A stretch of DNA of 64,000 nucleotides, from contig JAHISJ010000023.1 in NCBI GenBank assembly GCA_018818205.1, positions 173,428-237,427 of the forward strand. Direction: 5' to 3'. Numbering within the stretch: position 1 is the stretch's first letter; every line of letters starts with the position of its first letter. Below are positions 16,183 to 32,418 of this stretch, piece by piece. Source of the stretch: Patescibacteria group bacterium (GTDB taxonomy: Bacteria; Patescibacteriota; JABMPQ01; JAHIRA01). Made by a program: the position numbers and the translations under genes. The notes under the pieces are model-generated. The model did no database searches and was not told where the DNA came from. It saw nothing but the letters and a program-made list of their open reading frames with translations.

Positions 16183-18162
16183 ATGAACGAAGGTTCTCAC
16201 TTCCTCGATCAAAAATATCGTGGATTACGTACCTCACAGCCCGTTGAGCATGAAAAAGCCAGAAAAAAAAGAAGCGGCGAAAAGGTTTCAGAAAAACCGG
16301 TAGAAAAGATTGCCGACTTTCTCTCCGTCCTTGAGCGTACCCACCTGGGACACAATGATAACCCCCTGGTCTTTGATCGCATCAAGAACTACTATCACAA
16401 AGAGCACGTCATTAAACCGGAGGACATCCCTCAGCACTACTGGAACCAGCAAGCCGGAATCATGATCAGAGAAGGTCGTGGGGCAGACATGGCGCAAGCG
16501 GGAGTAGAAAAAGAAACGTTTGTCGACAAAGATGGCAAGGAACACACTAATTATCATTTTCCCGAAGACTTAAGAGAACAAAAAATTGAAATCCTGCGAA
16601 ACAACCAAGAAAGAAGTCTTGATTTGTGGGTAAACTACTTAACCTCCGATGACGCGCTCTACCCGATGTGGGCTAAATACTGGGCTTTCCAATCCGTTTT
16701 GGGTATGGGCAAATTTGAAAAAATTCAGATTGAAGGAGAAGAAGATGAACAAAGGCTGGGGAAAGCCAGATTCCAAAAAAGAACCAAAGACACTGTCTCT
16801 TCCTTTCCCTATCTAAACCCGAGAGCTCTCGCCCAAACTATTGGGATCATGTCAGAAAGAATTGCGGAAAAACAAAAGCCCAAAAAAGAACGACAGCCTA
16901 TAAAAAATGTCAGTGCGCAGCTTGCAGACCCCGAGTTTCAAAAGCTTCTATCAACTGAGAGCTTCTCAAAACTTTACGCGCAGTTTCTTTTTGAGATGCC
17001 GGAATATTCTACGGAGGGACTCGAAGAAACGAGAGGAGAATGGAAAAAATATCCTCAAGGCTCTGATCCTAAAAAGCTTGTTGAATCTCTTGAAAGCTAT
17101 CCACTCGAATGGTGTACGGTGAATCTCGGTACCGCCGAAGAGCAGCTTAAGGGTGGTGATTTTTATGTCTACTACTCATATGATGAAGGCGGTAATTCAA
17201 AAATTCCGAGGATTGCTATTAGAATGCTTGGACAAAAGATAGCTGAACCTCCCAGAGGCATTGCTCCTGACCAAAGCATTGATCCCTATATTGGTCCCGT
17301 GCTAGAAAAGAAGATGGGAGCATTTGGACAAGAAGGAGAACTGTATAAGAAGAGAGCTGGAGACATGGAAATACTCACCCAGATAGAAGAGAAGACCAAA
17401 GCGGGTATTTTCAACCAGCAAGAAGACCAAAATTTTATAAACCATCTCAAGGTTCTCTACGAGATTGACCGGTCTATGCAAGGCTTTGGTTTTCGAAAAG
17501 ACCCAAGGATCAGGGAACTAAGAGAGCAAAGAAATCCCGAAGAAGATATGCTAATCATTTTTAACTGTACCCCAGAGGAAATTGCGAGAGCTTTCGAGCA
17601 AATCACCCCCGATACAAAAGCCTACATCGGGCCACTGACTAAAAATATCTTCCACAAACTGCCACAAGATCTCGAACATATCTACATTGAGTTTCCTGAA
17701 CAAAAAATTCGTAAAACAGAGATTGAAATTGGCGAAAAATCCAAGGAAGAGCTCATAAAGGAACTGCTGGAAGCGGACATTAAGACTCCGAAAGAAGCGC
17801 TAGATATGATTAAATGCTCAGACTTTAAAACCCTCAAAATCCGAAAAAACGTAACTCTGGTCAGATTGAGTGTCAAAAATTTGGGATTTGAAAAGAATAC
17901 TGCCATCGATGATATTTATCAAAGAGCACAAGAACTGGGCCTTACGCTAAGCCCAGCTGAAGTTGGACCGCATTATCGGCTTGAATACCGTGATCAGCCG
18001 ATAGGTGAGTGGGTAACTGTTGGCATGAAACAAATAGGTGGCTTGAGTGTTTTTAGTGTGGGGCGTTCCAGTGGCAGGGAGTGTTTGTATAACCAAGTTA
18101 CCAATAGTACGTGGCATCCGATTCGTGAGTTTGTGTTTTGCCTTTGCAAGAATGAATCTTAG
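16183..18162 (+). CDS. Large hypothetical protein (659 aa), compositionally distinct
   Basis: A long uninterrupted ORF with noticeably higher GC and C-ending codons (ccc, ccg, ggc, acc) than its neighbours. No recognisable catalytic motif. Confidence 0.5.
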   Translation: MNEGSHFLDQKYRGLRTSQPVEHEKARKKRSGEKVSEKPVEKIADFLSVLERTHLGHNDNPLVFDRIKNYYHKEHVIKPEDIPQHYWNQQAGIMIREGRGADMAQAGVEKETFVDKDGKEHTNYHFPEDLREQKIEILRNNQERSLDLWVNYLTSDDALYPMWAKYWAFQSVLGMGKFEKIQIEGEEDEQRLGKARFQKRTKDTVSSFPYLNPRALAQTIGIMSERIAEKQKPKKERQPIKNVSAQLADPEFQKLLSTESFSKLYAQFLFEMPEYSTEGLEETRGEWKKYPQGSDPKKLVESLESYPLEWCTVNLGTAEEQLKGGDFYVYYSYDEGGNSKIPRIAIRMLGQKIAEPPRGIAPDQSIDPYIGPVLEKKMGAFGQEGELYKKRAGDMEILTQIEEKTKAGIFNQQEDQNFINHLKVLYEIDRSMQGFGFRKDPRIRELREQRNPEEDMLIIFNCTPEEIARAFEQITPDTKAYIGPLTKNIFHKLPQDLEHIYIEFPEQKIRKTEIEIGEKSKEELIKELLEADIKTPKEALDMIKCSDFKTLKIRKNVTLVRLSVKNLGFEKNTAIDDIYQRAQELGLTLSPAEVGPHYRLEYRDQPIGEWVTVGMKQIGGLSVFSVGRSSGRECLYNQVTNSTWHPIREFVFCLCKNES

Positions 18163-18175
18163 GCCCACATTGCCT

Positions 18176-18895
18176 TTAAATGTTCTTGCGAAGTTCTATT
18201 ACCTTCTTAAACGCTTCAAACGCTATTTGTTTTGAAAATTTTGATTTCCCCGATCTTCTTTCAATAAACGTAATAGGAATCTCCGCAATGCGGAGATTTT
18301 TTTGGTGAAAAAGATGCACGAGTTCGATTTGAAACCCGTAGCCTTCTGTTTGTATGGATGCTAAGTCGATTGTCCTAAGCTTTGATGCTCTAATACATCT
18401 AAATCCTGTCGTAAGATCAGTGAAGGGAATATCTAGAACCTTCCTGGCATAATAAATTCCAGCACGCGAAATACATTGTCTTACCGTATTCCAGTTTTTT
18501 ACTGATGCATGAGGAATATATCTAGAGCCTAAAACAAGGTCGTTCTCTTGCATAGCTCTTAGAAATCTAGGAATAGATCTGGGATTGTGTGAAAGGTCAG
18601 CGTCTATCTCAAATATAAAGGCAGCATTTTCTTGAAGTGCCTTAGAAAATCCAAATCGATATGCTGACCCAAGCCCTTTTTTGCTTTTCCGATTATATGT
18701 ATAAATCGATGCATATTTTTTTTGAAGTGCACGTGCAATTTCACCGGTGCCATCAGGTGAATTATCATCAATAATAAGGATTTTTTCATTGATCCTTGCT
18801 TTTTTGCATACAGAAAGGATCTCTTCTATAAGGAGCGGAAGAGATTCTTTTTCATTGTATGTGGGGATGATGATGTAGACTAGTTCGTTTGGCAC
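18176..18895 (-). CDS. Family-2 glycosyltransferase, dolichol/polyprenol-phosphate mannosyltransferase (DPM1)-like
   Basis: IIIPTYNEKESLPLL ... IIDDNSPDGTGEIA ... EIDADLSHNP ... and a C-terminus IAEIPITFIERRSGKSKFS, matching Dpm1/GtrB-type GT2 enzymes. Confidence 0.85.
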   Translation of the reverse strand: MPNELVYIIIPTYNEKESLPLLIEEILSVCKKARINEKILIIDDNSPDGTGEIARALQKKYASIYTYNRKSKKGLGSAYRFGFSKALQENAAFIFEIDADLSHNPRSIPRFLRAMQENDLVLGSRYIPHASVKNWNTVRQCISRAGIYYARKVLDIPFTDLTTGFRCIRASKLRTIDLASIQTEGYGFQIELVHLFHQKNLRIAEIPITFIERRSGKSKFSKQIAFEAFKKVIELRKNI

Positions 18896-19066
18896 TGCAC
18901 AATATTTAAGGTATGAATAAGAAATTATATCAAATAGAGAGTAAATAAGTACAGAGATTATTAACTACTGAATTTCTTCCCTTGAATAAAGGCTTAAATC
19001 TTGCTATCCTGAGCTGGTAGATAAGGAATCCCTACAGACTGGAAGGATATCGGGAAGTAGAAAAAA

Positions 19067-19290
19067 GGGGCCCCCGAATAATTCCGATTGTTTGGGAAGG
19101 TGGAACACTATGGAAGTCGGAGCGAATCCCGAAGGTTTTACGTAGGGGTTCAGCTAGACTGGAATAGTAAGAATTGGGGCCCCCGAAAAGTTCCTACTTT
19201 TTGGGGAAGAGGAGGAACAATATGTAAGCTGGAGTGGGTTCCGAAGGCTTTGCGAAGGGACACACGTAAGCTGGAATATTGTTCCGACGT
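19067..19290 (+). repeat. Two tandem, degenerate ~110-bp direct repeats (plus an upstream partial copy from ~18990) abutting tRNA-Ser
   Basis: Copy A 19067-19176 and copy B 19177-19290 both begin GGGGCCCCCGAA and are ~70% identical. Both contain a tRNA T-arm-like block (GGAGCGAATCCCGAAGG / GGAGTGGGTTCCGAAGG) and end in GCTGGAATA. Confidence 0.6.
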
Positions 19291-19379
19291 GGAGAGATGG
19301 CAGAGTGGACTAATGCGCTGCTCTCGAAAAGCAGTTCTCGCTTTGTTGCGAGACGTGGGTTCGAATCCCACTCTCTCCG
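19291..19379 (+). tRNA. tRNA-Ser (anticodon CGA)
   Basis: Acceptor ggagaga / tctctcc, D-arm with GG, anticodon stem ctgct / agcag with loop ctCGAaa, a long variable arm ttctcgctttgttgcgagac, T-arm gtggg-ttcgaat-cccac, discriminator G. CCA is not encoded. Confidence 0.85.
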
Positions 19380-19456
19380 GATTTTTGTATGAGTTTTTTG
19401 GAAAACTTTATATGTGAGGTGGGCATGGTTCCCATATTCTAATAAAATGAACGATT

Positions 19457-20908
19457 ATGTTCGAACAATCATTCAAAAATATCGACGATATTCTACATAC
19501 CGATTCCGGATGCGGGACCGAGCTTGATTATGTTGAGCAAACTTCTTGGATTCTCTTTTTAAAATACCTCGATGATTTGGAAGAAACAAAGAAAACCGAG
19601 GCGGAACTTTCGGGGAAAAAATATGAATATATTTTATCGCCAAAATATCGATGGAACACTTGGGCTTGCCCAAAAAAAGATGATGGAAAGATTGACCATA
19701 ACAAAGCTCTTGGTGGGGATGATTTACGTGATTTTGTAAATAACAATCTTTTTCCTTATCTTAAAAAATTAAAAGCCGAGGATTCTGACACGATTGAATA
19801 CAAGATCGGTGAGATTTTTAGTGAACTAAAAAACAAAATTACAAGCGGTCACAAGTTGCGAGAAATTTTAACTATTGTTGATGGAATGCACTTTAGACTG
19901 TATGAAGAAAAGCACGAACTTTCTCATCTCTATGAAGCGAAAATTGCTAAAATGGGTAACGCTGGTCGAAACGGCGGTGAATACTATACACCTCGTCCGC
20001 TGATTAAGACTATCGTGAAGGTGGTTGACCCAAAAATCGGGGAAACCATTTATGATGGTGCCTGTGGAAGCGCCGGGTTTTTAGTTGAAGCATATAACTA
20101 TCTAACACAAAATCCGGAGAAACTGTCTTCGGGTCAAATGGAGACCTTGCAAAACAAAACCTTTTACGGAAAAGAAATCAAATCACTAGCTTACATCATC
20201 GGCATTATGAACATGATTTTGCATGGCATTGAAGCTCCAAACATCAGACACACAAACACGCTGGCCGAAAATATCAACGATATTCAAGAAAAAGATCGAT
20301 ATGATATTGTTTTGGCTAATCCGCCTTTTGGCGCCGGTATCGGCCGTGAAATACAACAAAATTTCCCCATCAAAACCGGAGAAACCGCTTTTCTTTTTCT
20401 CCAACATTTCATTAAGATTCTAAAAGCCGGTGGTAGAGCGGGAATAGTTATAAAAAATACTTTTTTATCCAATACCGACAACGCCTCCGTATCTTTACGC
20501 AAACTTCTTCTGGAAAATTGCAACCTCCACACCGTCCTTGATTTACCCGGGGGTGCTTTTCAGGGCGCAGGTGTAAAAACCGTCGTTCTCTTTTTTGAAA
20601 AAGGCGCGCCGACCAAGAAAGTTTGGTTTTATCAACTGAACCTTGATCGTAATCTTGGTAAAGGAAATCCTTTAAACGAAGCTGATTTGACGGAGTTTGT
20701 GAAATTGCAAAAAAGCAAAGCGGAAAGTGAGAATTCTTGGAGTGTGAGTGTGAAGGATATTGATCAAGAGACATTTGATTTGTCTGTGAAGAATCCTAAT
20801 AAGAAGAATGAGGAGGTGTTGCGGGAGCCGGAGGAGATTTTGAAGGAGATGAGGGATTTGGATGAAGAGAGTAAAAAAATACTAGATTCTATGCAAGAAA
20901 AATTATGA
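19457..20908 (+). CDS. hsdM: Type I restriction-modification system, DNA methyltransferase subunit M
   Basis: HsdM N-terminal domain, AdoMet motif I DGACGSAGFLV, catalytic motif IV IVLANPPFG. Length 483 aa. Confidence 0.9.
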   Translation: MFEQSFKNIDDILHTDSGCGTELDYVEQTSWILFLKYLDDLEETKKTEAELSGKKYEYILSPKYRWNTWACPKKDDGKIDHNKALGGDDLRDFVNNNLFPYLKKLKAEDSDTIEYKIGEIFSELKNKITSGHKLREILTIVDGMHFRLYEEKHELSHLYEAKIAKMGNAGRNGGEYYTPRPLIKTIVKVVDPKIGETIYDGACGSAGFLVEAYNYLTQNPEKLSSGQMETLQNKTFYGKEIKSLAYIIGIMNMILHGIEAPNIRHTNTLAENINDIQEKDRYDIVLANPPFGAGIGREIQQNFPIKTGETAFLFLQHFIKILKAGGRAGIVIKNTFLSNTDNASVSLRKLLLENCNLHTVLDLPGGAFQGAGVKTVVLFFEKGAPTKKVWFYQLNLDRNLGKGNPLNEADLTEFVKLQKSKAESENSWSVSVKDIDQETFDLSVKNPNKKNEEVLREPEEILKEMRDLDEESKKILDSMQEKL

Positions 20909-21786
20909 TATCTGAAGAGCAAATACAGAATTGGTCACGAGCACTAAGTGAAATAGAGAACGAAAAATGTATTTCTACAGTGGCTACAATCAAAAATATT
21001 TTGCAAGAAAAGTTTGGAGATTCAGTAGATATTTTTCTTCAGGGCTCATATAGGAATAGTACAAATGTGAGACAAGATAGCGACGTAGATATCATTGTTT
21101 GTTACAATAAGGCATATTTTCCTGATCTGTCTGGACTTTCAGATCAAGAAATAGAACGTCATAATTCAATACTAATACCTTCTGAATACTCATTTTCACA
21201 ATTTAAGAGTGATGTTGAAGATTTAATGAGAAAAAAATTCCCACTTCAAACAGAAAGAAAAAATAAGTGTGTATTTGTAAAAGGAGATGTACATAGAGTA
21301 AATGCAGATATTGTACCTTGTTTTATTTTAAAGCGTTTTCGCCCTCCTTATTATGTTGAAGCCGAGGGAATTCAATTTTTTTCTGACAAAGAAGAAGAAA
21401 TAAAAAGTTTTCCAAGACAACACTACGAAAACGGAGCGGACAAAAACGAAGCAACTGATGCGTCGTTTAAATCGGTAGTTAGAATTTTAAAAAATTCTAG
21501 AAATATGCTTATTGATAAGAATGAAATTGACGAAAAACTTATGCCATCTTTTTTCTTAGAATGCTTAATATGGAATGTTCCAAATATCCAATTTAACACT
21601 TTTTCAGAAAAGAGATGTGTAAATAGCATTTTGAAAGTTTTGTGGGCAGACATGGATAGGATAGAGGTTGTGGAATCTTACACCGAAATCAGTAATTTAA
21701 TGCTTTTATTTCAAAAGCAAAAGGCACAAACCCCTGAAAGTGTTAAACTTTTTTTAAGTGAAGCTTATAACTTAATGAATTCATGA
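20905..21786 (+). CDS. Polymerase-beta-superfamily nucleotidyltransferase, cGAS/DncV-like (CD-NTase / SMODS-like) candidate
   Basis: Start ATG overlaps the hsdM stop (ATGA). Core GSYRNSTNVRQDSDVDIIV (GS ... DxD), a third acidic residue in GDVHRVNADIVPCF ~75 aa later, and a ~150-aa helical C-terminal half. Total 293 aa. This layout resembles CD-NTases rather than 100-aa MNT antitoxins. Confidence 0.55.
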   Translation: MISEEQIQNWSRALSEIENEKCISTVATIKNILQEKFGDSVDIFLQGSYRNSTNVRQDSDVDIIVCYNKAYFPDLSGLSDQEIERHNSILIPSEYSFSQFKSDVEDLMRKKFPLQTERKNKCVFVKGDVHRVNADIVPCFILKRFRPPYYVEAEGIQFFSDKEEEIKSFPRQHYENGADKNEATDASFKSVVRILKNSRNMLIDKNEIDEKLMPSFFLECLIWNVPNIQFNTFSEKRCVNSILKVLWADMDRIEVVESYTEISNLMLLFQKQKAQTPESVKLFLSEAYNLMNS

Positions 21787-21795
21787 AAAATTTCA

Positions 21796-22251
21796 ATGCA
21801 AAATGATATTTTATTAAAGGCTCTTGATGAGCGATACAAATCTATCCACATAATCCGTGAAAGGATTCAGACTGTTGTGCTATGGATTTTGGGGCTTTTA
21901 ATTACTGGGTCAGCATGGGTTTACCAGTCAGATGTTTATTTTGATTTACTTGGTATGTTGTCATTGTTTCTTGTGATTATTTGTATCTGGATATCTATTT
22001 GGAAATTTTATTTTTATGATCTAGAAAAGGGTTTTAATAGTCAAAGAAAAATTGCTGCTAAAATTGAAGAAGCCCTTGGTTTTTATAAGAAAAAACATTT
22101 TTCAGAGAGTGAAGAATCGATGTATCCAATTGAATGGAAAAATTCTGGGAAAAAAAATTGCGAGGGAAAATTTATGAGAAATACTTACTACTTGATTGCA
22201 CTGGGTTTCATTCTATCAATGCTTGCAATTTTTTCCCACACATGTATTTAG
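21796..22251 (+). CDS. Small membrane protein with N-terminal TM hairpin (SLATT-like candidate effector)
   Basis: 151 aa. Adjacent helices VVLWILGLLITGSAWVY and LLGMLSLFLVIICIWISIW, then a charged helical segment and a C-terminal hydrophobic helix YYLIALGFILSMLAIF. It starts 10 nt after the NTase stop and ends 5 nt before hsdS. Confidence 0.45.
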   Translation: MQNDILLKALDERYKSIHIIRERIQTVVLWILGLLITGSAWVYQSDVYFDLLGMLSLFLVIICIWISIWKFYFYDLEKGFNSQRKIAAKIEEALGFYKKKHFSESEESMYPIEWKNSGKKNCEGKFMRNTYYLIALGFILSMLAIFSHTCI

Positions 22252-22256
22252 ATATT

Positions 22257-23324
22257 ATGACTAAAAGAATTCAAAAAAATAACTGGCAAACAAAAAAACT
22301 TGGCGATATTTTAAAATTAGAATATGGTAAACCTTTGCCAAAAACTGAAAGATCTTCCGATGGGAAATATCCTGTTTATGGTGCAAATGGGATTAAGGAT
22401 TTTTCCAACAAGTTTTATTTTGATAAGCCAAGCATTGTTGTTGGCCGAAAAGGATCAGCAGGAAAGCTTCATTTAGTAGAGAAAAATTTTTGGCCATTGG
22501 ACGTGACTTATTTTGTAACTTTTGATGATAAAAAATATGATCTCAATTTTCTTTTTCATCTTTTGAGTGATCTTGAACTATCGAAATTAGCAAAAGGTGT
22601 AAAACCCGGAATAAATCGTAATGATGTTTACTCGAGAGAGGTCAATATTCCACCTCTCCCCGAACAACGCCGCATCGTAAAAATTCTAGATGAAATTTTT
22701 GAGAAAACAGCGAAAGCAAAAGAAAATTCTGAAAAAAATCTGCAAAATGCCAAAGAACTTTTTGAATCGTATTTGCAGAGTGTTTTTGAGAATCCAGGGG
22801 AAGATTGGAAAAAGAAAAGATTTGATAAAATTTGTGTTCTTCAAAGAGGTTTCGATTTGCCAACTCGTTTAAGAAATATAGGAAAATTTCCGCTTGTTAG
22901 CTCTAATGGAATTACTGACCAAATTGACCTCTGGAAAGTAAAAGCCCCTGGTGTTGTTACTGGAAGAAGTGGAACAATTGGCAATGTTCACTATATTGAA
23001 AAAGATTTTTGGCCTCTAAATACAGCACTTTACATCAAAGAGTTTTATGGGAATAATGAAAGGTTTATTTATTATTTATTGAAGCAATTTGATTTAAGTA
23101 AATACAGTTCAGGGGCAGGTGTCCCAACTTTAAATCGAAATAATGTTCATGATGAAATGGTTTTATATCCCAGATCGTTAAACGAGCAAAAATACATAGT
23201 CAAAAAACTTGATGGTCTTTCAGCCAAAACTAAAAAACTAGAAACAATTTACCAAAAAAAGTTATCAGACTTAGAAGAACTGAAAAAATCAGTTCTAAAA
23301 CGTGCCTTCAGTGGCAAGTTATAA
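22257..23324 (+). CDS. hsdS: Type I restriction-modification system, specificity subunit S
   Basis: Two target-recognition-domain repeats (…VYGANGIKDFSNKFYFDKPSIVVGRKGSAGK… and …LVSSNGITDQIDLWKVKAPGVVTGRSGTIGN…). Each is followed by a conserved coiled-coil spacer (LPEQRRIVKILDEIF / LNEQKYIVKKLDGL). ATG at 22257 chosen; the longer track ORF from 22134 would overlap the upstream gene. Confidence 0.8.
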   Translation: MTKRIQKNNWQTKKLGDILKLEYGKPLPKTERSSDGKYPVYGANGIKDFSNKFYFDKPSIVVGRKGSAGKLHLVEKNFWPLDVTYFVTFDDKKYDLNFLFHLLSDLELSKLAKGVKPGINRNDVYSREVNIPPLPEQRRIVKILDEIFEKTAKAKENSEKNLQNAKELFESYLQSVFENPGEDWKKKRFDKICVLQRGFDLPTRLRNIGKFPLVSSNGITDQIDLWKVKAPGVVTGRSGTIGNVHYIEKDFWPLNTALYIKEFYGNNERFIYYLLKQFDLSKYSSGAGVPTLNRNNVHDEMVLYPRSLNEQKYIVKKLDGLSAKTKKLETIYQKKLSDLEELKKSVLKRAFSGKL

Positions 23325-23336
23325 CAAACTAAATTT

Positions 23337-25664
23337 ATGAACGAATCAGAAACAAGAGCCGAATATATTGACCCAAAGCTTAAACAAGCTGGTTGGGGTG
23401 AGGTTGAGGGGTCGAAAATAATGCGGGAATATCGGATTACCGAAGGAAGAATTCAAGCCGGCGGTACAAGGTCCAAACCGGAGATTGCGGATTATGTTTT
23501 GGTTTATAAGAATCGTAAAATTGGAATAATTGAAGCAAAAGCTGTAGATCTGGAAGTTGGTGAGGGGGTAGCGCAAGCCAAGGCATACGCCGAGAAAATG
23601 GATATAGATTATTCTTATGCGACAAACGGCAAAGAGATTTATCAGATTTCCATGAAAACAGGTAAGGAAAAAAACGTGAGTAGCTTTCCCACTCCAGATG
23701 AACTATGGAATAAAACTTACGCCGACTGGAATGAATGGAAGGAAAAATTTGATGGAGTTTTGTTTGAAGATGGAGGAACGGGGAAAAGACCCAGGTATTA
23801 TCAGGAAATCGCGACAAATAATGTTTTGGAATCGATTACTGAAGAAAAAAAGAGAATCTTATTAACATTAGCAACCGGAACCGGAAAAACGTTTATTGCT
23901 TTTCAAATTGTTTGGAAACTTTTTCAAACCCGTTGGAATCTGAATCGTGATGGGGCCAGGAGGCCAAGAGTTTTGTTTTTAGCTGACAGGAATATTTTAG
24001 CTGATCAAGCTATGAATAATTTTGCGGCTTTTAAAGAAGATGAAAAAGTGAGAATCAACCCGCTTGATATCAGAAAAAAGGGTGGAGTACCTATGACCGG
24101 CAGTATCTTTTTTACCATCTTTCAAACTTTCATGAGCGGGCAAAACGGCATGCCATATTTTGGTGATTATCCACCTGATTTCTTTGATTTGATTATCATT
24201 GATGAATGTCACAGAGGAGGGGCAAATGATGAAAGTAATTGGCGTGGAATTTTAGAATATTTTTCTCCGGCGGTACAACTTGGACTTACCGCAACACCAA
24301 AGCGAAAAAATAATGTCGACACGTATAGATACTTTGGAGAACCGGTTTACATTTATTCACTCAAGGAAGGAATCAACGACGGGTTTTTAACACCTTTTAA
24401 AATCAAAAGAATCAAAACAACGTTAGATGATTATGTTTACACTTCCGATGATCAGATTATTGAAGGAGAAGTTGAAGAAGGAAAAATTTACGAAGAGCCG
24501 GATTTTAATAGAATTATTGAAATTAAGGAACGTGAAGCAAAGAGAGCGCGGGTATTAATGAATGAAATAAATCAAAATGAAAAAACTATTATCTTTTGCG
24601 CGACACAAGATCATGCCTTGGCGGTTCGTGACTTGGTAAGTCAAATGAAAAATAGTAAGGACCCATTTTATTGCGTTCGGGTGACGGCAAATGATGGGGC
24701 AAGAGGAGATCAGTCCTTACGTGATTTTCAAGATAATGAAAAAATAATTCCAACAATTCTCACAACTTCTCAAAAACTTTCCACAGGTGTAGACGCGCGC
24801 AATATTAGAAATATCGTTTTAATGCGTCCAATCAATTCGATCATAGAGTTTAAACAGATTATTGGACGTGGGACGAGACTTTTTGACGGTAAAGAATATT
24901 TTACGATCTATGATTTTGTTGATGCATACAAACATTTTTCTGACCCCGAATGGGATGGTGAGCCGATAGACGAGACAACCGAAAAGGAACCGCGTGAGAT
25001 GAAAGAACAGAAGGAAATAAAAGAGTCAAACGCTTCACTCGAAAAGCCGGAGGAACCGAAGAAGAAACTGAAAATTAAGTTAAGCGATGGCAAAGTGAGA
25101 GAGATAAAACACATGATTTCCACTTCTTTCTGGGGTGCTGATGGCAAACCGATTTCCATTCAAGAGTTCATGGATAATATGTTTGGTACCATGCCCGAGT
25201 TTTTTAAAAGTGAAGAAGAGCTCAGAAAAATTTGGTCAAATCCTAAAACGCGTAAAGCTTTTTTAGAGAAAATTGCCGAAAAAGGTTTTGGCAAAGATGA
25301 GCTAGAAACTCTGCAAAAAATGATTGATGCTGAGCAAAGTGACTTGTTTGATGTATTGTTGTATATCTCGTTCTTAACCAAGCCAATTTCAAGGACTCAA
25401 AGAGTAAACCAATCAAAAAATAAGATGTTTAAAGGTCTAGATGATAAACAAAAAGAGTTTCTGGATTTTGTTTTATTAAAATATGAAGAAAAAGGAGTTG
25501 AAGAACTTGATGAAGATAAATTACCGGTTTTGTTGAATTTGAAATATCACGCTATAGCAAATGCAGAAGAATCTCTTGGCGATGTAGCGCGAATTCGGTC
25601 TATGTTTTTTTCCTCTCAGAAAAATTTGTACTCTGAGGTAGAAAAGGAATATACATATAAATAA
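23337..25664 (+). CDS. hsdR: Type I restriction enzyme, endonuclease/translocase subunit R (compact, 775 aa)
   Basis: N-terminal Mrr/PD-(D/E)xK-like nuclease region (ADYVLVY...IGIIEAKA). SF2 helicase motif I LATGTGKTF and motif II LIIIDECHRG, with later helicase motifs (TATPKR, ILTTSQKLSTGVDA, QIIGRGTR). Confidence 0.85.
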   Translation: MNESETRAEYIDPKLKQAGWGEVEGSKIMREYRITEGRIQAGGTRSKPEIADYVLVYKNRKIGIIEAKAVDLEVGEGVAQAKAYAEKMDIDYSYATNGKEIYQISMKTGKEKNVSSFPTPDELWNKTYADWNEWKEKFDGVLFEDGGTGKRPRYYQEIATNNVLESITEEKKRILLTLATGTGKTFIAFQIVWKLFQTRWNLNRDGARRPRVLFLADRNILADQAMNNFAAFKEDEKVRINPLDIRKKGGVPMTGSIFFTIFQTFMSGQNGMPYFGDYPPDFFDLIIIDECHRGGANDESNWRGILEYFSPAVQLGLTATPKRKNNVDTYRYFGEPVYIYSLKEGINDGFLTPFKIKRIKTTLDDYVYTSDDQIIEGEVEEGKIYEEPDFNRIIEIKEREAKRARVLMNEINQNEKTIIFCATQDHALAVRDLVSQMKNSKDPFYCVRVTANDGARGDQSLRDFQDNEKIIPTILTTSQKLSTGVDARNIRNIVLMRPINSIIEFKQIIGRGTRLFDGKEYFTIYDFVDAYKHFSDPEWDGEPIDETTEKEPREMKEQKEIKESNASLEKPEEPKKKLKIKLSDGKVREIKHMISTSFWGADGKPISIQEFMDNMFGTMPEFFKSEEELRKIWSNPKTRKAFLEKIAEKGFGKDELETLQKMIDAEQSDLFDVLLYISFLTKPISRTQRVNQSKNKMFKGLDDKQKEFLDFVLLKYEEKGVEELDEDKLPVLLNLKYHAIANAEESLGDVARIRSMFFSSQKNLYSEVEKEYTYK

Positions 25665-25715
25665 AACGATGATTGAGATTTTTATTAAGAAAATTGAGGA
25701 GAGGGTGGAGAAAGC

Positions 25716-27245
25716 ATGGAAGTGAAACTGGATTTATTAAAAAAAATCAAAAATGCATATGACCCGTTTAAGGAATGTGTAACTATGGTTGATTGTGTTG
25801 ATTCTCTTTATGCTATTTGGGCTTATTACTCATTCCTTTTGCAGAAAAAAGAGGTTCCAGATATAGAATACATTAGGGAAATTGAACTAAATAAATCTAA
25901 TGAGTATAACTTTAGGTATGTTTCTCCTTGGGAGCTTGAGCTACTTGCAAGAGAGATACTAGTTAGCTCAATAGAAAGTAAACATTTCGATATACCATCA
26001 TTCAGGAGCGCAAAATATTTTGTCAACGCCTTGAATAATCTGAAAAGCATTGGAGGTGTATTTGAAATAGAAAAAGTAAGGCGTTTAACGTATGTACAAT
26101 TTCCTTGGCAGGGTGAAAATCATGTAATTGATGGGGTAAATATTCTTGTTCGATACTATAACTTGTTTAATCATGTAACTTTCGAGAAAAAAATTAGAGA
26201 GGAGTATGGTCTTTCGCTGAAAAAGCTATTTTTTGTTGGGTTTACATTGCTTTCTCATTTTCAGAATAATTTTGAACTTCGGTTACCCTATAAAAATAAA
26301 GATATCCCTGATTTAAAAGATCAAGAAATTGATGCTTTCCTTAACAAATTTTCACTTGCATTGCCTGAAATTAGAAAAAGAGTTGAAAAAGAACAAGCTG
26401 TTGATGAAAATTTCTTATGTCGATCTATATGTTTAAAAGCATTGCCTCTCATTAAACTAGAAAGAAGTATTGTTTGTCCAATCCCTGATTTTCTCCTTTG
26501 GTCTTTTACAAAAAATCTTTATTATACGATTTACGATCAAAACAAAGATAGCAAAATAATTGGCGAAAATTTTGAAAAATACATAAAAAAAGTCATTAAA
26601 GCCGAGATTGATATAGTAGACTTATTTCCTAAGAAAAAATATGGCATAGAACAAAAAGAAACTTCGGACTACATTATTAAATATAGTAAAAGCCTTCTTT
26701 TTATTGAAGCAAAATTAAAAAGAATTCCATTTGAGGCTAAAACTTGTTTATTAGATGAAACAGCTTTTAACGAAGAACTTGTAAAATTTTCTGAATCAAT
26801 CGTTCAGACATACAAGGTAATTAATGATTTTATAAACAATGAATTTTCATTCTCAAACAAAAAACAAATAGTTAGGTATGAAGATGATTTTTTAATTTAC
26901 CCAATTATTGTAACATTAGAAGACTCATATATTTGGGGCAGTGATTCAAAATTGCTTGAAGCAGAAGTCTGTAAAAGATTAGAAGAGAATCAAATTCAAT
27001 TGAATTTTGTAAGCCGTTTCCCATATTTGTTGTGTTCGGCTAGAGAGTTTGAAAAATTTATACAGTTAATTAAGAATATTGACCCAGATAGTTTTTTTAA
27101 AGTAAGAAATAGAAATGAAGACACAAAAAGGAGCACTGTTAATAACCTAATGTATAATTTTTTTAATAAAGATATGGAAAAAAATAAAAAGGTTTTATTG
27201 AAAGAAGAGTTCGTTAAAATTTTCCCCAAAGGTCTAATAATATAA
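25716..27245 (+). CDS. Hypothetical protein (509 aa), very AT-rich, possible C-terminal PD-(D/E)xK nuclease-like motif
   Basis: An uninterrupted ORF despite ~28% GC. Possible D...ExK arrangement SDYIIKYSKSLLFIEAKLKR. It sits immediately downstream of hsdR in the same orientation. Confidence 0.45.
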   Translation: MEVKLDLLKKIKNAYDPFKECVTMVDCVDSLYAIWAYYSFLLQKKEVPDIEYIREIELNKSNEYNFRYVSPWELELLAREILVSSIESKHFDIPSFRSAKYFVNALNNLKSIGGVFEIEKVRRLTYVQFPWQGENHVIDGVNILVRYYNLFNHVTFEKKIREEYGLSLKKLFFVGFTLLSHFQNNFELRLPYKNKDIPDLKDQEIDAFLNKFSLALPEIRKRVEKEQAVDENFLCRSICLKALPLIKLERSIVCPIPDFLLWSFTKNLYYTIYDQNKDSKIIGENFEKYIKKVIKAEIDIVDLFPKKKYGIEQKETSDYIIKYSKSLLFIEAKLKRIPFEAKTCLLDETAFNEELVKFSESIVQTYKVINDFINNEFSFSNKKQIVRYEDDFLIYPIIVTLEDSYIWGSDSKLLEAEVCKRLEENQIQLNFVSRFPYLLCSAREFEKFIQLIKNIDPDSFFKVRNRNEDTKRSTVNNLMYNFFNKDMEKNKKVLLKEEFVKIFPKGLII

Positions 27246-27570
27246 TTTTAGAACAATCTCTGATTCTCACTATCACTTGATGAAAAAAAAATGTCTAGAG
27301 AGTGATAAAATCTCAAAGTCAGATAATGAATGTGATTACTATATGTAGTGGAATGCACGTGATGAGTATGAGAAGTTAGAAGTGGAAATATCCAACTAAC
27401 AGAGAAAAATACACAAAAGAAAAATCAGACTATATCAATTCAATAACAAAGAAAGCCAAAAGTGGAAACGAGTAATGATCTTTCACAATATAAAATATAT
27501 AGCCAAAAATGAATTTGTATGCTATAATAAGTATGCTTAATTAAGTGTTTCTAAAAAACTAACAAAAAAA

Positions 27571-28122: not shown

Positions 28123-29295
28123 ATGCACAAGACACCTCTCTCCTTTCACCTCATGGCTAAACCAACTGGAGCTGACTGCAACTTACGTTGCGATTATTGT
28201 TATTTTCTTCCAAAGAAAAAACTGTCTCCAAAGACAGAACGAATGTCAGACAAGATCTTGGAAGAGTACGTTAAGCAGTTAATAGAATCACATAACGTAC
28301 CTTCTGTTACTGTTGCATGGCAAGGAGGAGAACCAACGTTAATGGGTCTTGAGTTCTACAAGCGTGCAACAAAGCTTGTAGAAAAATACAAAAAGTCTGG
28401 AACGCATATAGAGCACACCATTCAAACCAACGGAACACTCCTTGATGATGAATGGTGTGCTTTTTTTAGAGAAAATAACTATTTGGTGGGTATAAGCCTT
28501 GATGGCCCACCTGAATTTCATGATACGTTTCGTAAAAACAAGGTTGGCGATTCAGTGTATGATCAAGTCATGAAGGGGATAGCGCTTCTACAAAAACATA
28601 CTGTCGAGTTTAACGTACTTACTACGGTTAATGCAGCTAATGTTAAACATCCTCTAAAACTATACTCTTTTCTCAGAGATGACTTAAAAATAAAATTCAT
28701 CCATTTTATTCCTGTAGTCGAGACGGGAAAGGACCGTCAAAATGTCAAAGAGTTTTCGCTAAAACCAGGTGAGTATGGAGATTTTCTGAATAGTATTTTT
28801 GACGAATGGATACAGAAAGACGTAGGGGAGGTCTTTGTCCAAATGTTTGACACTGCTTTAGCCTCATGGGCAGGAGCACCACAAACTGCATGCGTTTTTG
28901 CACCAACATGCGGTACTGCGCTCATTATGATGCCAGATGGTGCAGTTTATTCATGTGATCATTTTGCTGATTCCAACCACTGTCTTGGCACTATTTCAAA
29001 AACACACCTATCAGAATTGGTCAGCTCAGAAAAACAAAGACTCTTTGGAGAGTCAAAGCAAACGACGTTGCCGGAAGAATGCAAAGAATGTGCCTATCTT
29101 TTTGCCTGTCAGGGCGGGTGTCCAAAGAATAGATTTGTACATACGAAGAATAACTCAGAGAGTAAAAACTATTTGTGCAGCGACTATAAAGCTTTTTTTG
29201 AGCATATTGACACACCTATGCAAAAAATGACGTCACTTCTCAGACAAGGACGCGCACCAGCAGAAATAATGGAAAATATACATACTAATAAATGA
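28123..29295 (+). CDS. Anaerobic sulfatase-maturating enzyme (radical SAM/SPASM, anSME)
   Basis: Radical SAM CxxxCxxC in GADCNLRCDYCYF at the N-terminus. A C-terminal Cys-rich SPASM region (CVFAPTCGTA...CDHF...CKECAYLFACQGGCPKN). Directly upstream of a sulfatase gene. Confidence 0.8.
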   Translation: MHKTPLSFHLMAKPTGADCNLRCDYCYFLPKKKLSPKTERMSDKILEEYVKQLIESHNVPSVTVAWQGGEPTLMGLEFYKRATKLVEKYKKSGTHIEHTIQTNGTLLDDEWCAFFRENNYLVGISLDGPPEFHDTFRKNKVGDSVYDQVMKGIALLQKHTVEFNVLTTVNAANVKHPLKLYSFLRDDLKIKFIHFIPVVETGKDRQNVKEFSLKPGEYGDFLNSIFDEWIQKDVGEVFVQMFDTALASWAGAPQTACVFAPTCGTALIMMPDGAVYSCDHFADSNHCLGTISKTHLSELVSSEKQRLFGESKQTTLPEECKECAYLFACQGGCPKNRFVHTKNNSESKNYLCSDYKAFFEHIDTPMQKMTSLLRQGRAPAEIMENIHTNK

Positions 29296-29373
29296 ATATT
29301 TGCTATATTTATATATAACATCATTAACTACTCTATGCATATCTGAGGATTATAAACACTAAATAAAAAACGC

Positions 29374-31728: not shown

Positions 31729-31740
31729 AAAAAAACAAAA

Positions 31741-32418
31741 ATGATCTCTACAGTAAGTGGAATCTTACCAATGGCAATTGGTGTAGCGATAAGTCCCGTG
31801 CCGATTATTGCGGTAATTTTGATGCTTTTCTCAAAAAAAGCCAAAAGTAATAGTTTGTTGTTTTTATTGGGATGGATCGTTGGTCTAATGCTATCTGGGG
31901 GGATTATTTTGATCCTAGGCAACTCACTTGATATTGCAACAAACAAAGAAACATCAACTGGCGCGTTGCTTGTAAAACTTCTCCTTGGTGTATTGCTTCT
32001 CTTTTTGGCGATCAAACAGTGGAAGAGTAGACCAAAAGAAGGCAAGGATCTCGCCATGCCTAAATGGATGAAATCGATTGATTCTTTTTCATCTACTAAA
32101 GCTTTTGGACTCGCATTTTTACTTTCTGCAGTAAACCCAAAGAATCTTGCGCTTACGCTTGCCGCTGCTTTCGCAATTGCTCAATCAGGACTGACAACTT
32201 CAAGTCAAACAATCGTTCTTGCCATATTCATAGTACTCGCGAGCATCACTGTTGGAATCCCTGTGTTGATAAATTTAGTTGCAGGGAGTAGAGTAGAGAA
32301 TATGTTAACCACCTGGAAAGCATGGCTTACGCACAATAACGCCACGGTCATGTTTATTTTACTTCTTATTTTTGGAATAAGTTTGGTAAGTCAAAGTGTA
32401 CAAGCATTAACACGATAA
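31741..32418 (+). CDS. Cysteine-less polytopic membrane protein (possibly DsbD-superfamily Gap/Sap-like or an exporter)
   Basis: 225 aa with 6-7 hydrophobic helices. An N-terminal AISPVPIIAVILML motif is reminiscent of the DsbD/CcdA fold without the cysteines. It lies immediately after the sulfatase. Confidence 0.4.
   Translation: MISTVSGILPMAIGVAISPVPIIAVILMLFSKKAKSNSLLFLLGWIVGLMLSGGIILILGNSLDIATNKETSTGALLVKLLLGVLLLFLAIKQWKSRPKEGKDLAMPKWMKSIDSFSSTKAFGLAFLLSAVNPKNLALTLAAAFAIAQSGLTTSSQTIVLAIFIVLASITVGIPVLINLVAGSRVENMLTTWKAWLTHNNATVMFILLLIFGISLVSQSVQALTR

What the first reader, a model, noticed from the sequence alone, without database searches (positions are those of the whole stretch)
19380..27570. 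Approximately 8-kb defence island at the 3' side of tRNA-Ser(CGA) with no integrase
Everything between tRNA-Ser (ends 19379) and the HdeD-like gene (27571) is defence-related or an orphan: hsdM, the NTase/TM pair, hsdS, a compact hsdR (775 aa, shorter than typical ~1000-aa HsdR proteins) and the AT-rich orphan. tRNA 3' ends are classic integration sites, and the upstream GT2 gene is on the opposite strand, which supports an inserted block. No integrase, recombinase or clear direct repeat of the tRNA 3' end was found at the distal end. This suggests an old, degraded island or acquisition by other means.
Basis: inference. Interest (0 to 1): 0.5.

Follow-up and report, generated by a model that had tools for sequence, protein, structure and literature searches.

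The report
Restriction operon with embedded CBASS cassette
Next to a serine tRNA gene, an uncultured ultra-small (Patescibacteria) bacterium carries a horizontally acquired anti-virus operon: a complete type I restriction-modification system with a two-gene CBASS suicide-signalling cassette spliced into it, followed by a separate nuclease gene. This is a tidy example of a known kind of defence island, not a new kind of system.

Summary
tRNA-Ser(CGA) at 19290-19380 is followed by six tightly packed same-strand genes, ending before a DUF308/HdeD-like gene at 27571.

They are an intact type IB (EcoAI/EcoEI-family) restriction-modification system, hsdM-hsdS-hsdR. A minimal CBASS pair, a CD-NTase plus a conserved 3-TM protein, sits between hsdM and hsdS. 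A 509-aa PD-(D/E)xK nuclease gene follows.

- The 775-aa HsdR is full length for its family.
- The "orphan" belongs to a family of about 2,800 cluster representatives.

No integrase, no tRNA-end repeat and no empty site could be found. The nearest relative of the host is only 66% identical in a flanking protein.

The block nonetheless looks mobile:
- The same composite operon (HsdM 76-86%, HsdR 72-79% identical) lies in three other, unrelated neighbourhoods, one of them directly after a different tRNA-Ser.
- A sister island, built on an unrelated type I backbone, carries a large serine recombinase and also follows a tRNA-Ser.
- The 1.4-kb CBASS cassette is about 80% identical in DNA between unrelated restriction backbones, with the similarity starting and ending at the cassette edges.

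Verdict: a real, known kind of defence island whose embedded CBASS uses an effector with no family model; moderate interest.

The parts
19059..19276 (+). Two degenerate 109-nt tandem units directly upstream of, and in register with, the tRNA unit. Their link to the island is uncertain.
   Evidence: Found by the repeat finder as family D1/D2. In a three-way alignment with 19277-19385 they show weak similarity to the anticodon-loop and T-loop parts of the tRNA. No Rfam family matches. Fold z-scores are -2.5 and -1.9.
19290..19380 (+). tRNA-Ser(CGA), the left border of the island.
   Evidence: ARAGORN; Rfam RF00005, 59.3 bits.
19381..19456 (+). 76-nt spacer holding one promoter-like match (19420-19448) upstream of hsdM.
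   Evidence: Consensus scan, which found no more matches than chance in the region. The spacer is not conserved with the L152 spacer.
19457..20908 (+). hsdM, the type I N6-adenine DNA methyltransferase subunit (483 aa).
   Evidence: - Pfam N6_Mtase 6.4e-66 plus HsdM_N.
- PADLOC MTase_I 1.4e-162, matched over residues 1-482.
- NPPF motif at residue 288.
- 85.7% identical to the L152 HsdM.
20905..21786 (+). CD-NTase (CBASS cyclase, 293 aa). Its start overlaps the hsdM stop by 4 nt.
   Evidence: - PADLOC Cyclase PDLC00801 6.4e-79, matched over residues 2-291.
- Precomputed Pfam hits to CD_NTase_C, SMODS and NTP_transf_2.
- G47, S48, D60, D62 and D135 are invariant across 50 homologues.
21796..22251 (+). 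151-aa protein with three hydrophobic segments, the presumed CBASS membrane effector.
   Evidence: - Translation.
- Homologues follow the CD-NTase in L071-73, L076, L077, L079, L082, L083, L086, L091, L152, L154, L177, L179 and L181.
- 29 invariant columns in an 11-sequence alignment.
- No convincing Pfam, PADLOC or NCBIfam match: nothing in Pfam, and only marginal hits to PADLOC PDC-M18B (E 0.009) and NCBIfam AceI/PACE (E 8e-4, 19.5 bits vs cutoff 180).
22242..23324 (+). hsdS, the specificity subunit with two target-recognition domains. The start is at 22242 as called, or at the in-frame ATG at 22257.
   Evidence: Pfam Methylase_S 3.4e-35 in two stretches; PADLOC Specificity_I 2.5e-83; gene call; junction read.
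23337..25664 (+). hsdR, the type IB restriction/translocase subunit (775 aa, full length).
   Evidence: - NCBIfam NF046051 (EcoAI/FtnUII family) 828.7 bits against a cutoff of 550, matched over residues 1-766 and model positions 1-768.
- Pfam ResIII, EcoEI_R_C, Helicase_C and HSDR_N_2.
- Motifs D52...E66xK68, ATGTGKT at 179 and DECH at 289.
25716..27245 (+). 509-aa protein with an N-terminal helical region (including winged-helix-like folds) and a C-terminal PD-(D/E)xK nuclease. It belongs to a large uncharacterised family and is probably an independent single-gene defence nuclease.
   Evidence: - 2,784 cluster representatives at E<=1e-3.
- D318, E331 and K333 are invariant in 75 sequences.
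- AlphaFold2 model with pLDDT 92.9 and pTM 0.92.
- Foldseek: Upx E 2.5e-6.
- Lowest GC among the 50 ORFs analysed in the window, 0.288.
27246..27570 (.). 325-nt AT-rich spacer (GC 0.27), the right border of the island. It holds no tRNA fragment.
   Evidence: Sequence; Smith-Waterman score no better than shuffled controls; pattern search negative.

Best explanation
The 8-kb block is a horizontally acquired composite defence operon at the 3' flank of tRNA-Ser(CGA) in a Patescibacteria genome.

**1. Backbone: an intact type IB restriction-modification system (EcoAI/EcoEI family).**
- From established knowledge of type I systems, HsdM2-HsdS methylates a bipartite target.
- With HsdR added, the complex translocates along unmethylated DNA and cuts it.

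**2. Embedded cassette: a 1.4-kb, two-gene minimal (type I) CBASS.**
- It is spliced between hsdM and hsdS with junctions that overlap or are only a few nucleotides apart, so it is presumably co-transcribed with the restriction genes.
- By inference from the CBASS paradigm, its CD-NTase makes a nucleotide signal on infection.
- That signal would activate the adjacent 3-TM protein to damage the membrane and abort infection.

**3. A separate 509-aa PD-(D/E)xK nuclease after hsdR.**
- It belongs to a large uncharacterised family also found on conjugative plasmids.
- It was most likely added independently and acts as a third, DNA-degrading layer.

**Shown:** gene identities, intact catalytic motifs, the embedded architecture, its recurrence elsewhere, and exchange of the cassette between unrelated restriction backbones.

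**Inferred:** all activities, co-transcription, and the route of arrival. The likely route is a recombinase since lost or acting in trans. Sister islands carry a large serine recombinase, which leaves no long repeats.
For: **Identities and intact motifs**
-.

**Operon-like packing**
- Overlaps or gaps between the first five genes run from -10 to +12 nt; the 509-aa gene follows after 51 nt.

**Recurrence of the same type IB + CBASS operon in different neighbourhoods**
- L152: HsdM 85.7%, HsdR 79.4%, CD-NTase 58%, TM 64% identical; flanked by Bax1-I/YkuD/HrcA/Dus on one side and LemA/M48 on the other.
- L179: HsdM 77%, HsdR 75%; MsrB/MsrA on the left.
- L181/L182: HsdM 76%, HsdR 72%.

**tRNA context**
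- L152 starts 127 nt after a tRNA-Ser(TGA).
- The L072 island starts 95 nt after another tRNA-Ser(TGA) and contains a 440-aa large serine recombinase.
- L154 is the same element as L072 (SerRec 69%, HsdM 76%, HsdR 67%).
- In L177 the order is tRNA-Gln, an 821-aa gene, a serine recombinase, then the CD-NTase and TM genes.

**Embedding is frequent in this CD-NTase family**
- 11 of 32 metagenome loci with at least 2.5 kb upstream have hsdM or hsdS upstream on the same strand.
- 5 of 15 loci with both flanks available are fully embedded.

**Cassette exchange**
- L179 (type IB backbone) against L071-73 (HindI-like backbone, HsdM 24-28% identical): CD-NTase 78-84% and TM 88-91% identical in protein.
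- DNA identity is about 80% over roughly 1,400 nt, running from 6 nt before the CD-NTase start to 38 nt after the TM stop.
- In a neighbour-joining tree, CD-NTases from the two backbones are intermixed.

**Transfer-prone backbone**
- Uninterrupted hsdM-hsdS-hsdR operons of this family occur at 61-75% HsdM identity on contigs with GC from 0.33 to 0.68.

**The 509-aa nuclease**
-.
- It occurs alone on Pseudomonas and Sphingobium plasmids and in an unrelated small island.

**Precedent**
- Defence genes embedded in type I systems are documented in bioRxiv 10.1101/2024.01.29.577857 and PMC11411939.
Against: - No integrase, att site or tRNA-end repeat is present in the window.
- No empty site is available, and no population variant lacking the island was found. 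Both contigs that carry the DUF308 gene also carry the island.
- hsdM and hsdR have the same composition as the rest of the window. The GC dip of the cassette recurs in every host, so composition does not date the acquisition.
- L179 and L181 are not directly next to a tRNA, so targeting of tRNA-Ser rests on three loci.
- The 3-TM protein matches no known CBASS effector model. Its effector role rests on position and co-conservation only.
- No activity was tested.
- The promoter and terminator scans found no more sites than chance.
Confidence: 0.72

Rival explanations
1. The block is an ancestral, vertically inherited chromosomal operon. Its position next to tRNA-Ser is coincidental, and nothing was ever inserted at this site.
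For: - hsdM and hsdR match the window's composition.
- There is no integrase, no repeat and no empty site.
- The AT-rich cassette is equally AT-rich in every host, so it is not a marker of recent arrival.
Against: - The same operon at 72-86% protein identity sits in at least three other, non-syntenic neighbourhoods.
- By contrast, the best homologue of the adjacent 659-aa protein anywhere is 66% identical.
- The two tRNA-Ser genes next to the most similar copies are different isoacceptors, about 70% identical.
- The backbone family spans contigs with GC from 0.33 to 0.68.
Confidence: 0.15
2. The block is the remnant of a classical tRNA-targeting island moved by a tyrosine integrase. The integrase gene and the distal attR repeat have been deleted or eroded.
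For: - It abuts the 3' end of a tRNA.
- There are signs of rearrangement around the tRNA: two 109-nt tandem units in the window and a decayed tRNA-Ser copy with an insertion in the T loop in L152.
Against: - No tyrosine integrase appears in any of the related loci examined.
- The recombinases seen beside sister islands are large serine recombinases.
- No tRNA-derived repeat lies downstream in the window, L152 or L072.
- The tRNA-like remnants lie on the 5' side of the tRNA, the wrong side for an attR scar.
Confidence: 0.1
3. The CD-NTase/TM pair and the restriction enzyme form one functionally coupled system, as in PrrC-EcoprrI. The type I complex would keep the cyclase silent, and phage anti-restriction proteins would trigger it.
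For: - The cassette sits inside type I operons of two unrelated families, always at an inter-subunit junction and with seamless junctions.
- About a third of the family's loci are embedded in this way.
- PrrC is cited as almost exclusively embedded in type I systems.
Against: - Close homologues of the same pair occur with no restriction genes nearby: L076, L077, L086 and L177.
- The pair moves between backbones whose HsdM proteins are only about 25% identical. A specific protein-protein fit is therefore unlikely.
- Co-expression alone explains the embedding.
Confidence: 0.12
4. The 509-aa protein is a second, nuclease effector of the CBASS system (NucC-, Cap4- or Can2-like) and not an independent gene.
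For: - It lies next to the operon on the same strand, 51 nt after hsdR.
Against: - It is absent from the other copies of the operon.
- Homologues stand alone on plasmids and in an island without a CD-NTase.
- It has a much lower GC than its neighbours.
Confidence: 0.05

Closest known systems
Type IB restriction-modification systems (EcoAI / EcoEI family)
   Same: - HsdM with HsdM_N and N6_Mtase domains and the NPPF motif.
- HsdS with two recognition domains.
- An HsdR of about 770 aa with the N-terminal nuclease motif, the DEAD-box motor and the EcoEI_R_C domain.
- The HsdR scores above the curated cutoff of the NCBIfam EcoAI/FtnUII model.
   Different: The operon is interrupted between hsdM and hsdS by two unrelated genes. 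Relatives at 61-75% HsdM identity have hsdM-hsdS-hsdR uninterrupted. The host is a Patescibacteria MAG.
Type I (minimal, two-gene) CBASS with a transmembrane effector
   Same: - A CD-NTase with the GS...DxD...D active site and a CD_NTase_C domain.
- It is immediately followed by a small multi-TM protein.
- No Cap2/Cap3 or HORMA/TRIP13 accessory genes are present.
   Different: - The 3-TM partner matches no Pfam, PADLOC or NCBIfam effector model convincingly.
- The pair has no promoter region of its own. It is spliced into a restriction operon.
- The CD-NTase is related to, but scores below the cutoff of, the DS-2 cyclase model (215 bits against 350). DS-2 also has a phospholipase and a diadenylate cyclase (PMC13092281), both absent here.
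Defence genes embedded in type I R-M operons (PrrC in EcoprrI; TgvAB in Vibrio cholerae VPI-2; 'guilt-by-embedding' candidates)
   Same: Same-strand defence genes sit between the subunit genes of a type I system. This matches the descriptions in bioRxiv 10.1101/2024.01.29.577857 and PMC11411939.
   Different: - The embedded system here is a CBASS.
[quoted passage not shown]
- My literature searches found no paper describing CBASS inside a type I operon or in Patescibacteria.
- The same cassette is shared at about 80% DNA identity by unrelated backbones.
Upx (single-protein PD-(D/E)xK anti-phage nuclease, PDB 9wuf) and type IIS enzymes of the FokI / N.BspD6I type
   Different: - It is 509 aa against 1,212 for Upx, with one recognisable nuclease domain where Upx has two (PMC13099982).
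- Sequence identity is 10-15%.
- There is no detectable sequence-level relationship: the PDB profile search gave only E 0.034 to Can2.
- No adjacent methyltransferase of its own is present.
tRNA-associated genomic islands
   Same: It is an accessory defence block abutting the 3' end of a tRNA gene. Related blocks lie next to other tRNA genes.
   Different: It has no integrase and no flanking direct repeats. The related islands that do have a recombinase carry a large serine recombinase and not a tyrosine integrase.

Membership tests
Type I R-M, family IB (EcoAI/EcoEI) | HsdR with an N-terminal PD-(D/E)xK nuclease, a superfamily-2 motor and the family-specific C-terminal domain, scoring above the curated family cutoff. 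| tested here: met
   NF046051 828.7 bits (cutoff 550), full length. EcoEI_R_C 5.9e-27. Motifs D52..E66xK68, ATGTGKT and DECH.
Type I R-M, family IB (EcoAI/EcoEI) | HsdM N6-adenine methyltransferase with the catalytic NPPF motif, and an HsdS with two target-recognition domains, in the same gene cluster. | tested here: met
   HsdS gives two Methylase_S stretches.
Type I R-M, family IB (EcoAI/EcoEI) | Sequence-specific methylation, and ATP-dependent restriction of unmodified DNA. | not testable with these tools
   Needs methylome data or biochemistry.
CBASS (type I, two-gene) | A CD-NTase-fold cyclase with an intact GS...[DE]xD...D active site. | tested here: met
   PADLOC Cyclase 6.4e-79. CD_NTase_C domain. 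G47, S48, D60, D62 and D135 invariant in 50 homologues.
CBASS (type I, two-gene) | An adjacent effector gene of a recognised effector class that responds to the nucleotide signal. | tested here: inconclusive
   A conserved 3-TM protein follows the cyclase in at least 15 loci. It matches no effector model convincingly, and ligand binding is untested.
CBASS (type I, two-gene) | Absence of Cap2/Cap3 (type II) and HORMA/TRIP13 (type III) accessory genes. | tested here: met
   Every gene between 19457 and 27245 is accounted for.
DS-2 (DefensePredictor: phospholipase + cGAS-like cyclase + diadenylate cyclase) | A cyclase above the NF053871 cutoff, together with phospholipase and diadenylate cyclase genes. 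| tested here: not met
   215.2 bits against a cutoff of 350. No phospholipase or diadenylate cyclase gene is present. System description from PMC13092281.
Defence system embedded in a type I R-M operon | Foreign defence genes on the same strand, between intact subunit genes of one type I system. | tested here: met
   The gene order is hsdM, CD-NTase, TM, hsdS, hsdR, with gaps from -10 to +12 nt. The definition follows.
tRNA-integrated genomic island | It abuts the 3' end of a tRNA gene. | tested here: met
   76 nt separate the tRNA-Ser from hsdM.
tRNA-integrated genomic island | An integrase or recombinase gene within the island. | tested here: not met
   None within +/-10 kb. No serine-recombinase homologue in the 64-kb window. 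Sister islands L072, L154 and L177 do have one.
tRNA-integrated genomic island | A direct repeat of the tRNA 3' end at the distal border. | tested here: not met
   Such a repeat is not expected if a serine recombinase was used (my own knowledge).
tRNA-integrated genomic island | An empty site in related genomes. | not testable with these tools
   No close relative is available. The best left-flank homologue is 66% identical and not syntenic. Only island-bearing contigs of the same strain were found.
tRNA-integrated genomic island | The same block occurs in different genomic contexts in other genomes. | tested here: met
   L152, L179 and L181/L182.
Upx-type defence nuclease | Two PD-(D/E)xK-type nuclease domains in one protein of about 1,200 aa. 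| tested here: not met
   The protein is 509 aa with a single D318/E331/K333 core. Upx is the best structural match, but with only 266 residues aligned. Upx description.

The most novel reading that the evidence does not exclude
The CD-NTase + 3-TM pair may be a discrete 1.4-kb cassette specialised for life inside type I restriction operons.

- It would move between unrelated type I backbones and land at an inter-subunit junction, between hsdM and hsdS in this clade and between hsdS and hsdR in a more distant one.
- It carries no recombinase or repeats of its own.
- It may be functionally wired to the restriction complex, for example firing when phage anti-restriction proteins disable the enzyme, as PrrC does in EcoprrI.

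If so, it would be a new mode of cassette mobility and a new trigger logic for CBASS.
Probability: 0.12. Interest if true: 0.75.

Novelty: new variant of a known kind. Interest (0 to 1): 0.4.

Why it matters
**Defence in ultra-small bacteria**
- Patescibacteria have tiny genomes and few defence systems per genome, but a high density of them per megabase (PMC12259885).
- This locus packs three layers into 8 kb by nesting one system inside another's operon:
  - restriction of unmodified DNA;
  - an abortive-infection signalling pair;
  - a stand-alone nuclease.

**What standard annotation would miss**
- The membrane partner of the cyclase has no family model in PADLOC v2, Pfam or NCBIfam. The 509-aa nuclease family, with about 2,800 cluster representatives, has none either.
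- Rule-based defence finders therefore seem unlikely to call a complete CBASS here, or to call the nuclease at all (my inference; I did not run such a tool).

**A lead for follow-up**
- The near-identical cassette in unrelated type I backbones is a clean case for asking how embedded defence cassettes move.
- It is also a clean case for asking whether embedding is only co-regulation or true functional coupling.

None of this overturns current ideas. It extends the known 'defence systems embedded in defence systems' pattern to CBASS and to this phylum.

Tried and rejected
**Empty-site and synteny test**
- A genome-contig scan with the left-flank 659-aa protein gave 63 loci at 55% identity or less. 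Almost all were candidate-phyla MAGs, and none shared neighbours.
- The protein database gave a best non-self hit of 66%, on a 10-kb contig without synteny.
- Exact look-ups of window proteins returned only the source contig and fragments of the same strain.

**tRNA-end repeat**
- Pattern search, repeat finder and Smith-Waterman against shuffles were all negative. L152 and L072 were also negative.

**Viral origin**
- The exact tRNA is absent from viral contigs.
- The 509-aa protein is absent from the phage collection and nearly absent from IMG/VR, with 2 loci.
- CD-NTase relatives in viral contigs are distant, at 27-31% identity.

**Composition as a clock**
- Rejected, because the same genes are AT-rich in every host.

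**Promoter and terminator scans**
- They found no more sites than chance.

**Searches that failed or were unavailable**
- The first metagenome scan with the single CD-NTase sequence found nothing. A second scan with an alignment succeeded.
- The first structure model, built from 3 sequences, was unusable (pLDDT 49.6). The model from 75 sequences was good.
- The afdb50 fold library was unavailable.

**Family assignments considered and rejected**
- The 3-TM protein as a known effector: no convincing Pfam, PADLOC or NCBIfam match.
- The cyclase as a DS-2 member: below cutoff, and the partner genes are absent.

**The 109-nt units upstream of the tRNA**
- No Rfam family matches and the fold signal is only marginal. 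They remain unexplained.

Full report
**Observation**

ARAGORN and Rfam place a tRNA-Ser(CGA) at 19290-19380. A GT2 glycosyltransferase gene lies upstream on the opposite strand, at 18176-18895. Downstream, six genes on the + strand fill the space up to a DUF308/HdeD-like gene at 27571:

| Gene | Coordinates |
|---|---|
| hsdM | 19457-20908 |
| nucleotidyltransferase | 20905-21786 |
| 151-aa membrane protein | 21796-22251 |
| hsdS | 22242-23324 |
| hsdR | 23337-25664 |
| 509-aa ORF | 25716-27245 |

They agree with the gene calls of the public record, ena:ERZ27247128:k141_1722070, a 318-kb contig. NCBI names its proteins as 'Patescibacteria group bacterium'.

**What each gene is**

- *HsdM.* It has the HsdM_N and N6_Mtase domains and an NPPF motif.
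- *HsdS.* It has two recognition domains.
- *HsdR.* It matches the NCBIfam model of the EcoAI/FtnUII family end to end, 828.7 bits against a cutoff of 550 with a model length of 768. It carries EcoEI_R_C, a Walker A motif, DECH and a D...ExK nuclease motif.
- *The nucleotidyltransferase.* It is a CD-NTase: PADLOC Cyclase 6.4e-79 over its full length, with a CD_NTase_C domain. G47, S48, D60, D62 and D135 are invariant in 50 homologues. It is related to the cyclase of DS-2 but scores below that model's cutoff, and it lacks DS-2's partner genes.
- *The 151-aa protein.* It has three hydrophobic segments. It belongs to a conserved family that follows this CD-NTase in many loci. It has no convincing Pfam, PADLOC or NCBIfam match.

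The cyclase and the membrane protein together have the architecture of a minimal (type I) CBASS with a membrane effector.

**The 'orphan'**

- A profile search over 1.84 billion cluster representatives found 2,784 relatives at E<=1e-3, 509 of them at E<=1e-30, and most about 500 aa long.
- In 75 diverse members, D318, E331 and K333 are invariant, a PD-(D/E)xK signature.
- Some members weakly hit DUF234, HSDR_N_2 and NERD.
- With the deep alignment, AlphaFold2 gave pLDDT 92.9 and pTM 0.92.
- Homologues are annotated as hypothetical proteins on Pseudomonas and Sphingobium plasmids. One sits in a small variable region of another small genome.
- The family is absent from the phage collection and almost absent from viral contigs.
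- It is not present in the other copies of the operon.

I read it as an independently acquired single-gene nuclease, probably defensive.

**Is the block an inserted island?**

- The flanking 659-aa protein has no homologue above 66% identity in 5.8 billion proteins.
- The 63 loci from reference genomes share no neighbours with the window.

There is also no integrase and no tRNA-end repeat.

Composition is mosaic. hsdM (0.390) and hsdR (0.374) match the window mean of 0.393. The cassette, hsdS and the nuclease gene are at 0.29-0.32. The same dip recurs in all five related loci checked. It is therefore a property of the genes and not a clock.

Comparative data nevertheless favour mobility.

| Locus | HsdM identity | HsdR identity | Neighbourhood |
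|---|---|---|---|
| L152 | 85.7% | 79.4% | Bax1-I/YkuD/HrcA/Dus on the left, LemA/M48 on the right |
| L179 | 77% | 75% | MsrB/MsrA on the left |
| L181/L182 | 76% | 72% | an AAA_15-RloB pair directly upstream of hsdM |

- All three loci have the same type IB operon with the same embedded pair.
- In L152 hsdM starts 127 nt after a tRNA-Ser. That tRNA has anticodon TGA and is only about 70% identical to the window's.
- A sister island has the order hsdS'-hsdM-DUF4145-CD-NTase-TM-hsdS-hsdR-YgjP. Its backbone is an unrelated HindI-like type I system of about 1,060-aa HsdR, with HsdM about 25% identical to the window's.
- In L072 this sister island starts 95 nt after a third tRNA-Ser and contains a large serine recombinase.
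- L154 is the same element.
- In L177 the pair sits beside a serine recombinase downstream of tRNA-Gln.
- Large serine recombinases do not create long flanking repeats (my own knowledge). The missing repeat in the window is therefore uninformative.
- Uninterrupted operons of the type IB family occur at 61-75% HsdM identity on contigs with GC from 0.33 to 0.68. This shows a transfer-prone backbone.

Weighing this, horizontal acquisition is likely, at about 0.75. Integration targeted at the tRNA is plausible but unproven, at about 0.4-0.5. It rests on three tRNA-Ser-adjacent loci, against L179 and L181, which lack an adjacent tRNA, and L154, where none was found in the 9 kb upstream that was fetched.

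**The embedded cassette**

- Of 80 metagenome loci encoding relatives of the CD-NTase, 11 of the 32 with at least 2.5 kb upstream have hsdM or hsdS upstream on the same strand.
- 5 of the 15 with both flanks available are fully embedded.
- In the closer clade the cassette lies between hsdM and hsdS. In a more distant clade it lies between hsdS and hsdR.
- L179 (type IB backbone) and L071-73 (HindI-like backbone, HsdM 24-28% identical) share the cassette closely. The CD-NTase is 78-84% and the TM protein 88-91% identical.
- Their DNA is about 80% identical over roughly 1,400 nt. The similarity begins 6 nt before the CD-NTase start and ends 38 nt after the TM stop.
- Where a restriction subunit gene directly abuts the cassette, the junction is seamless: the upstream stop codon lies 0-2 nt before the ATG (overlapping it in the window), and the hsdS start lies 2-5 nt after the TM stop.
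- In a neighbour-joining tree, CD-NTases from the two backbones are intermixed.

The two-gene cassette has therefore been exchanged between unrelated restriction operons. How this happens is unexplained.

The same pair also occurs with no restriction genes nearby, in L076, L077, L086 and L177. This argues against obligatory functional coupling and for co-expression as the benefit of embedding.

**Mechanism**

The steps below are inferred from established knowledge of the families, except where I say they are shown.
- The type IB enzyme methylates host DNA and cuts unmodified incoming DNA after translocation.
- The CD-NTase, co-transcribed from the same operon, responds to infection by making a nucleotide second messenger.
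- That messenger activates the 3-TM protein to disrupt the membrane and abort infection.
- The PD-(D/E)xK protein degrades nucleic acid as a separate layer.
- Only the sequence-level integrity of all catalytic motifs is shown here.

**Comparison with what is known**

- Embedding of defence genes in type I operons is documented. Examples are PrrC, TgvAB and the 'guilt-by-embedding' survey.
- I found no paper describing CBASS inside a type I operon or in Patescibacteria.
- Candidate-phyla bacteria are reported to have few defence systems per genome but a high density of them.

I therefore class the locus as a new variant of a known kind, of moderate interest (0.4).

**Side observations**

- Two degenerate 109-nt tandem units lie upstream of the tRNA and in register with it.
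- L152 has a decayed tRNA-Ser copy upstream of its intact tRNA.
- Both hint at recombination around these tRNA genes. Both lie on the 5' side of the tRNA, which a classical integration scar does not explain.

Noticed in passing
window 19059-19276: Two degenerate 109-nt tandem units (both containing GGGGCCCCCGAA...) lie directly upstream of tRNA-Ser, in register with the 109-nt unit that contains the tRNA. They weakly resemble its anticodon-loop and T-loop parts. No Rfam family matches, and the fold z-scores are -2.5 and -1.9.
   Followed up: partly
L152 5876-6016 (upstream of tRNA-Ser(TGA) at 6133-6222): A decayed copy of the neighbouring tRNA-Ser. It has exact 25-nt and 24-nt matches, the anticodon arm is deleted, and about 81 nt are inserted in the T loop. 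It lies on the 5' side of the intact tRNA that precedes the homologous restriction/CBASS operon.
   Followed up: partly
L179 8995-10392 versus L071 1861-3258, L073 1165-2581 and L072 7993-9347: About 80% DNA identity is confined to the CD-NTase + TM cassette between operons whose HsdM proteins are only 24-28% identical. The cassette has been swapped between unrelated type I backbones with seamless junctions.
   Followed up: yes
L072 3763-5085 (- strand) and L154 5435-6790 (+ strand): A large serine recombinase (69% identical between the two loci) lies next to a half-size hsdS plus a full-size hsdS. It has opposite orientations in the two loci. It could be the island's integrase, or it could also shuffle hsdS.
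   Followed up: partly
window 28153-32418: An anaerobic sulfatase-maturating radical-SAM enzyme (TIGR03942, 479 bits), a 784-aa sulfatase and an SfLAP-family membrane protein lie immediately right of the island, in a Patescibacteria genome.
   Followed up: no
window 16183-18162: A 659-aa protein with no Pfam domain has more than 1,000 homologues at E<=1e-50, mostly in candidate-phyla MAGs. It is a widespread, uncharacterised family.
   Followed up: partly
window 10635-11828: A 397-aa protein with an N-terminal zinc ribbon and a C-terminal NADase_transloc / F5_F8 type C domain.
   Followed up: no
L152 7798-8817 and 10394-11092; L179 8290-8910; L181 5590-7539: Other cargo travels with the same operon in other genomes. 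L152 has RhuM between hsdM and the CD-NTase, and a DUF4160 gene after the TM gene. L179 has DUF4145, which is also present in L072. L181 has an AAA_15 + RloB + DUF7695 trio directly upstream of hsdM.
   Followed up: no
L069 9162-12718: A homologue of the 509-aa nuclease (27% identical) sits in a small variable region between a DUF2779 gene and a DUF4238 gene. The region abuts a tRNA-Ser(GCT) on the minus strand.
   Followed up: partly
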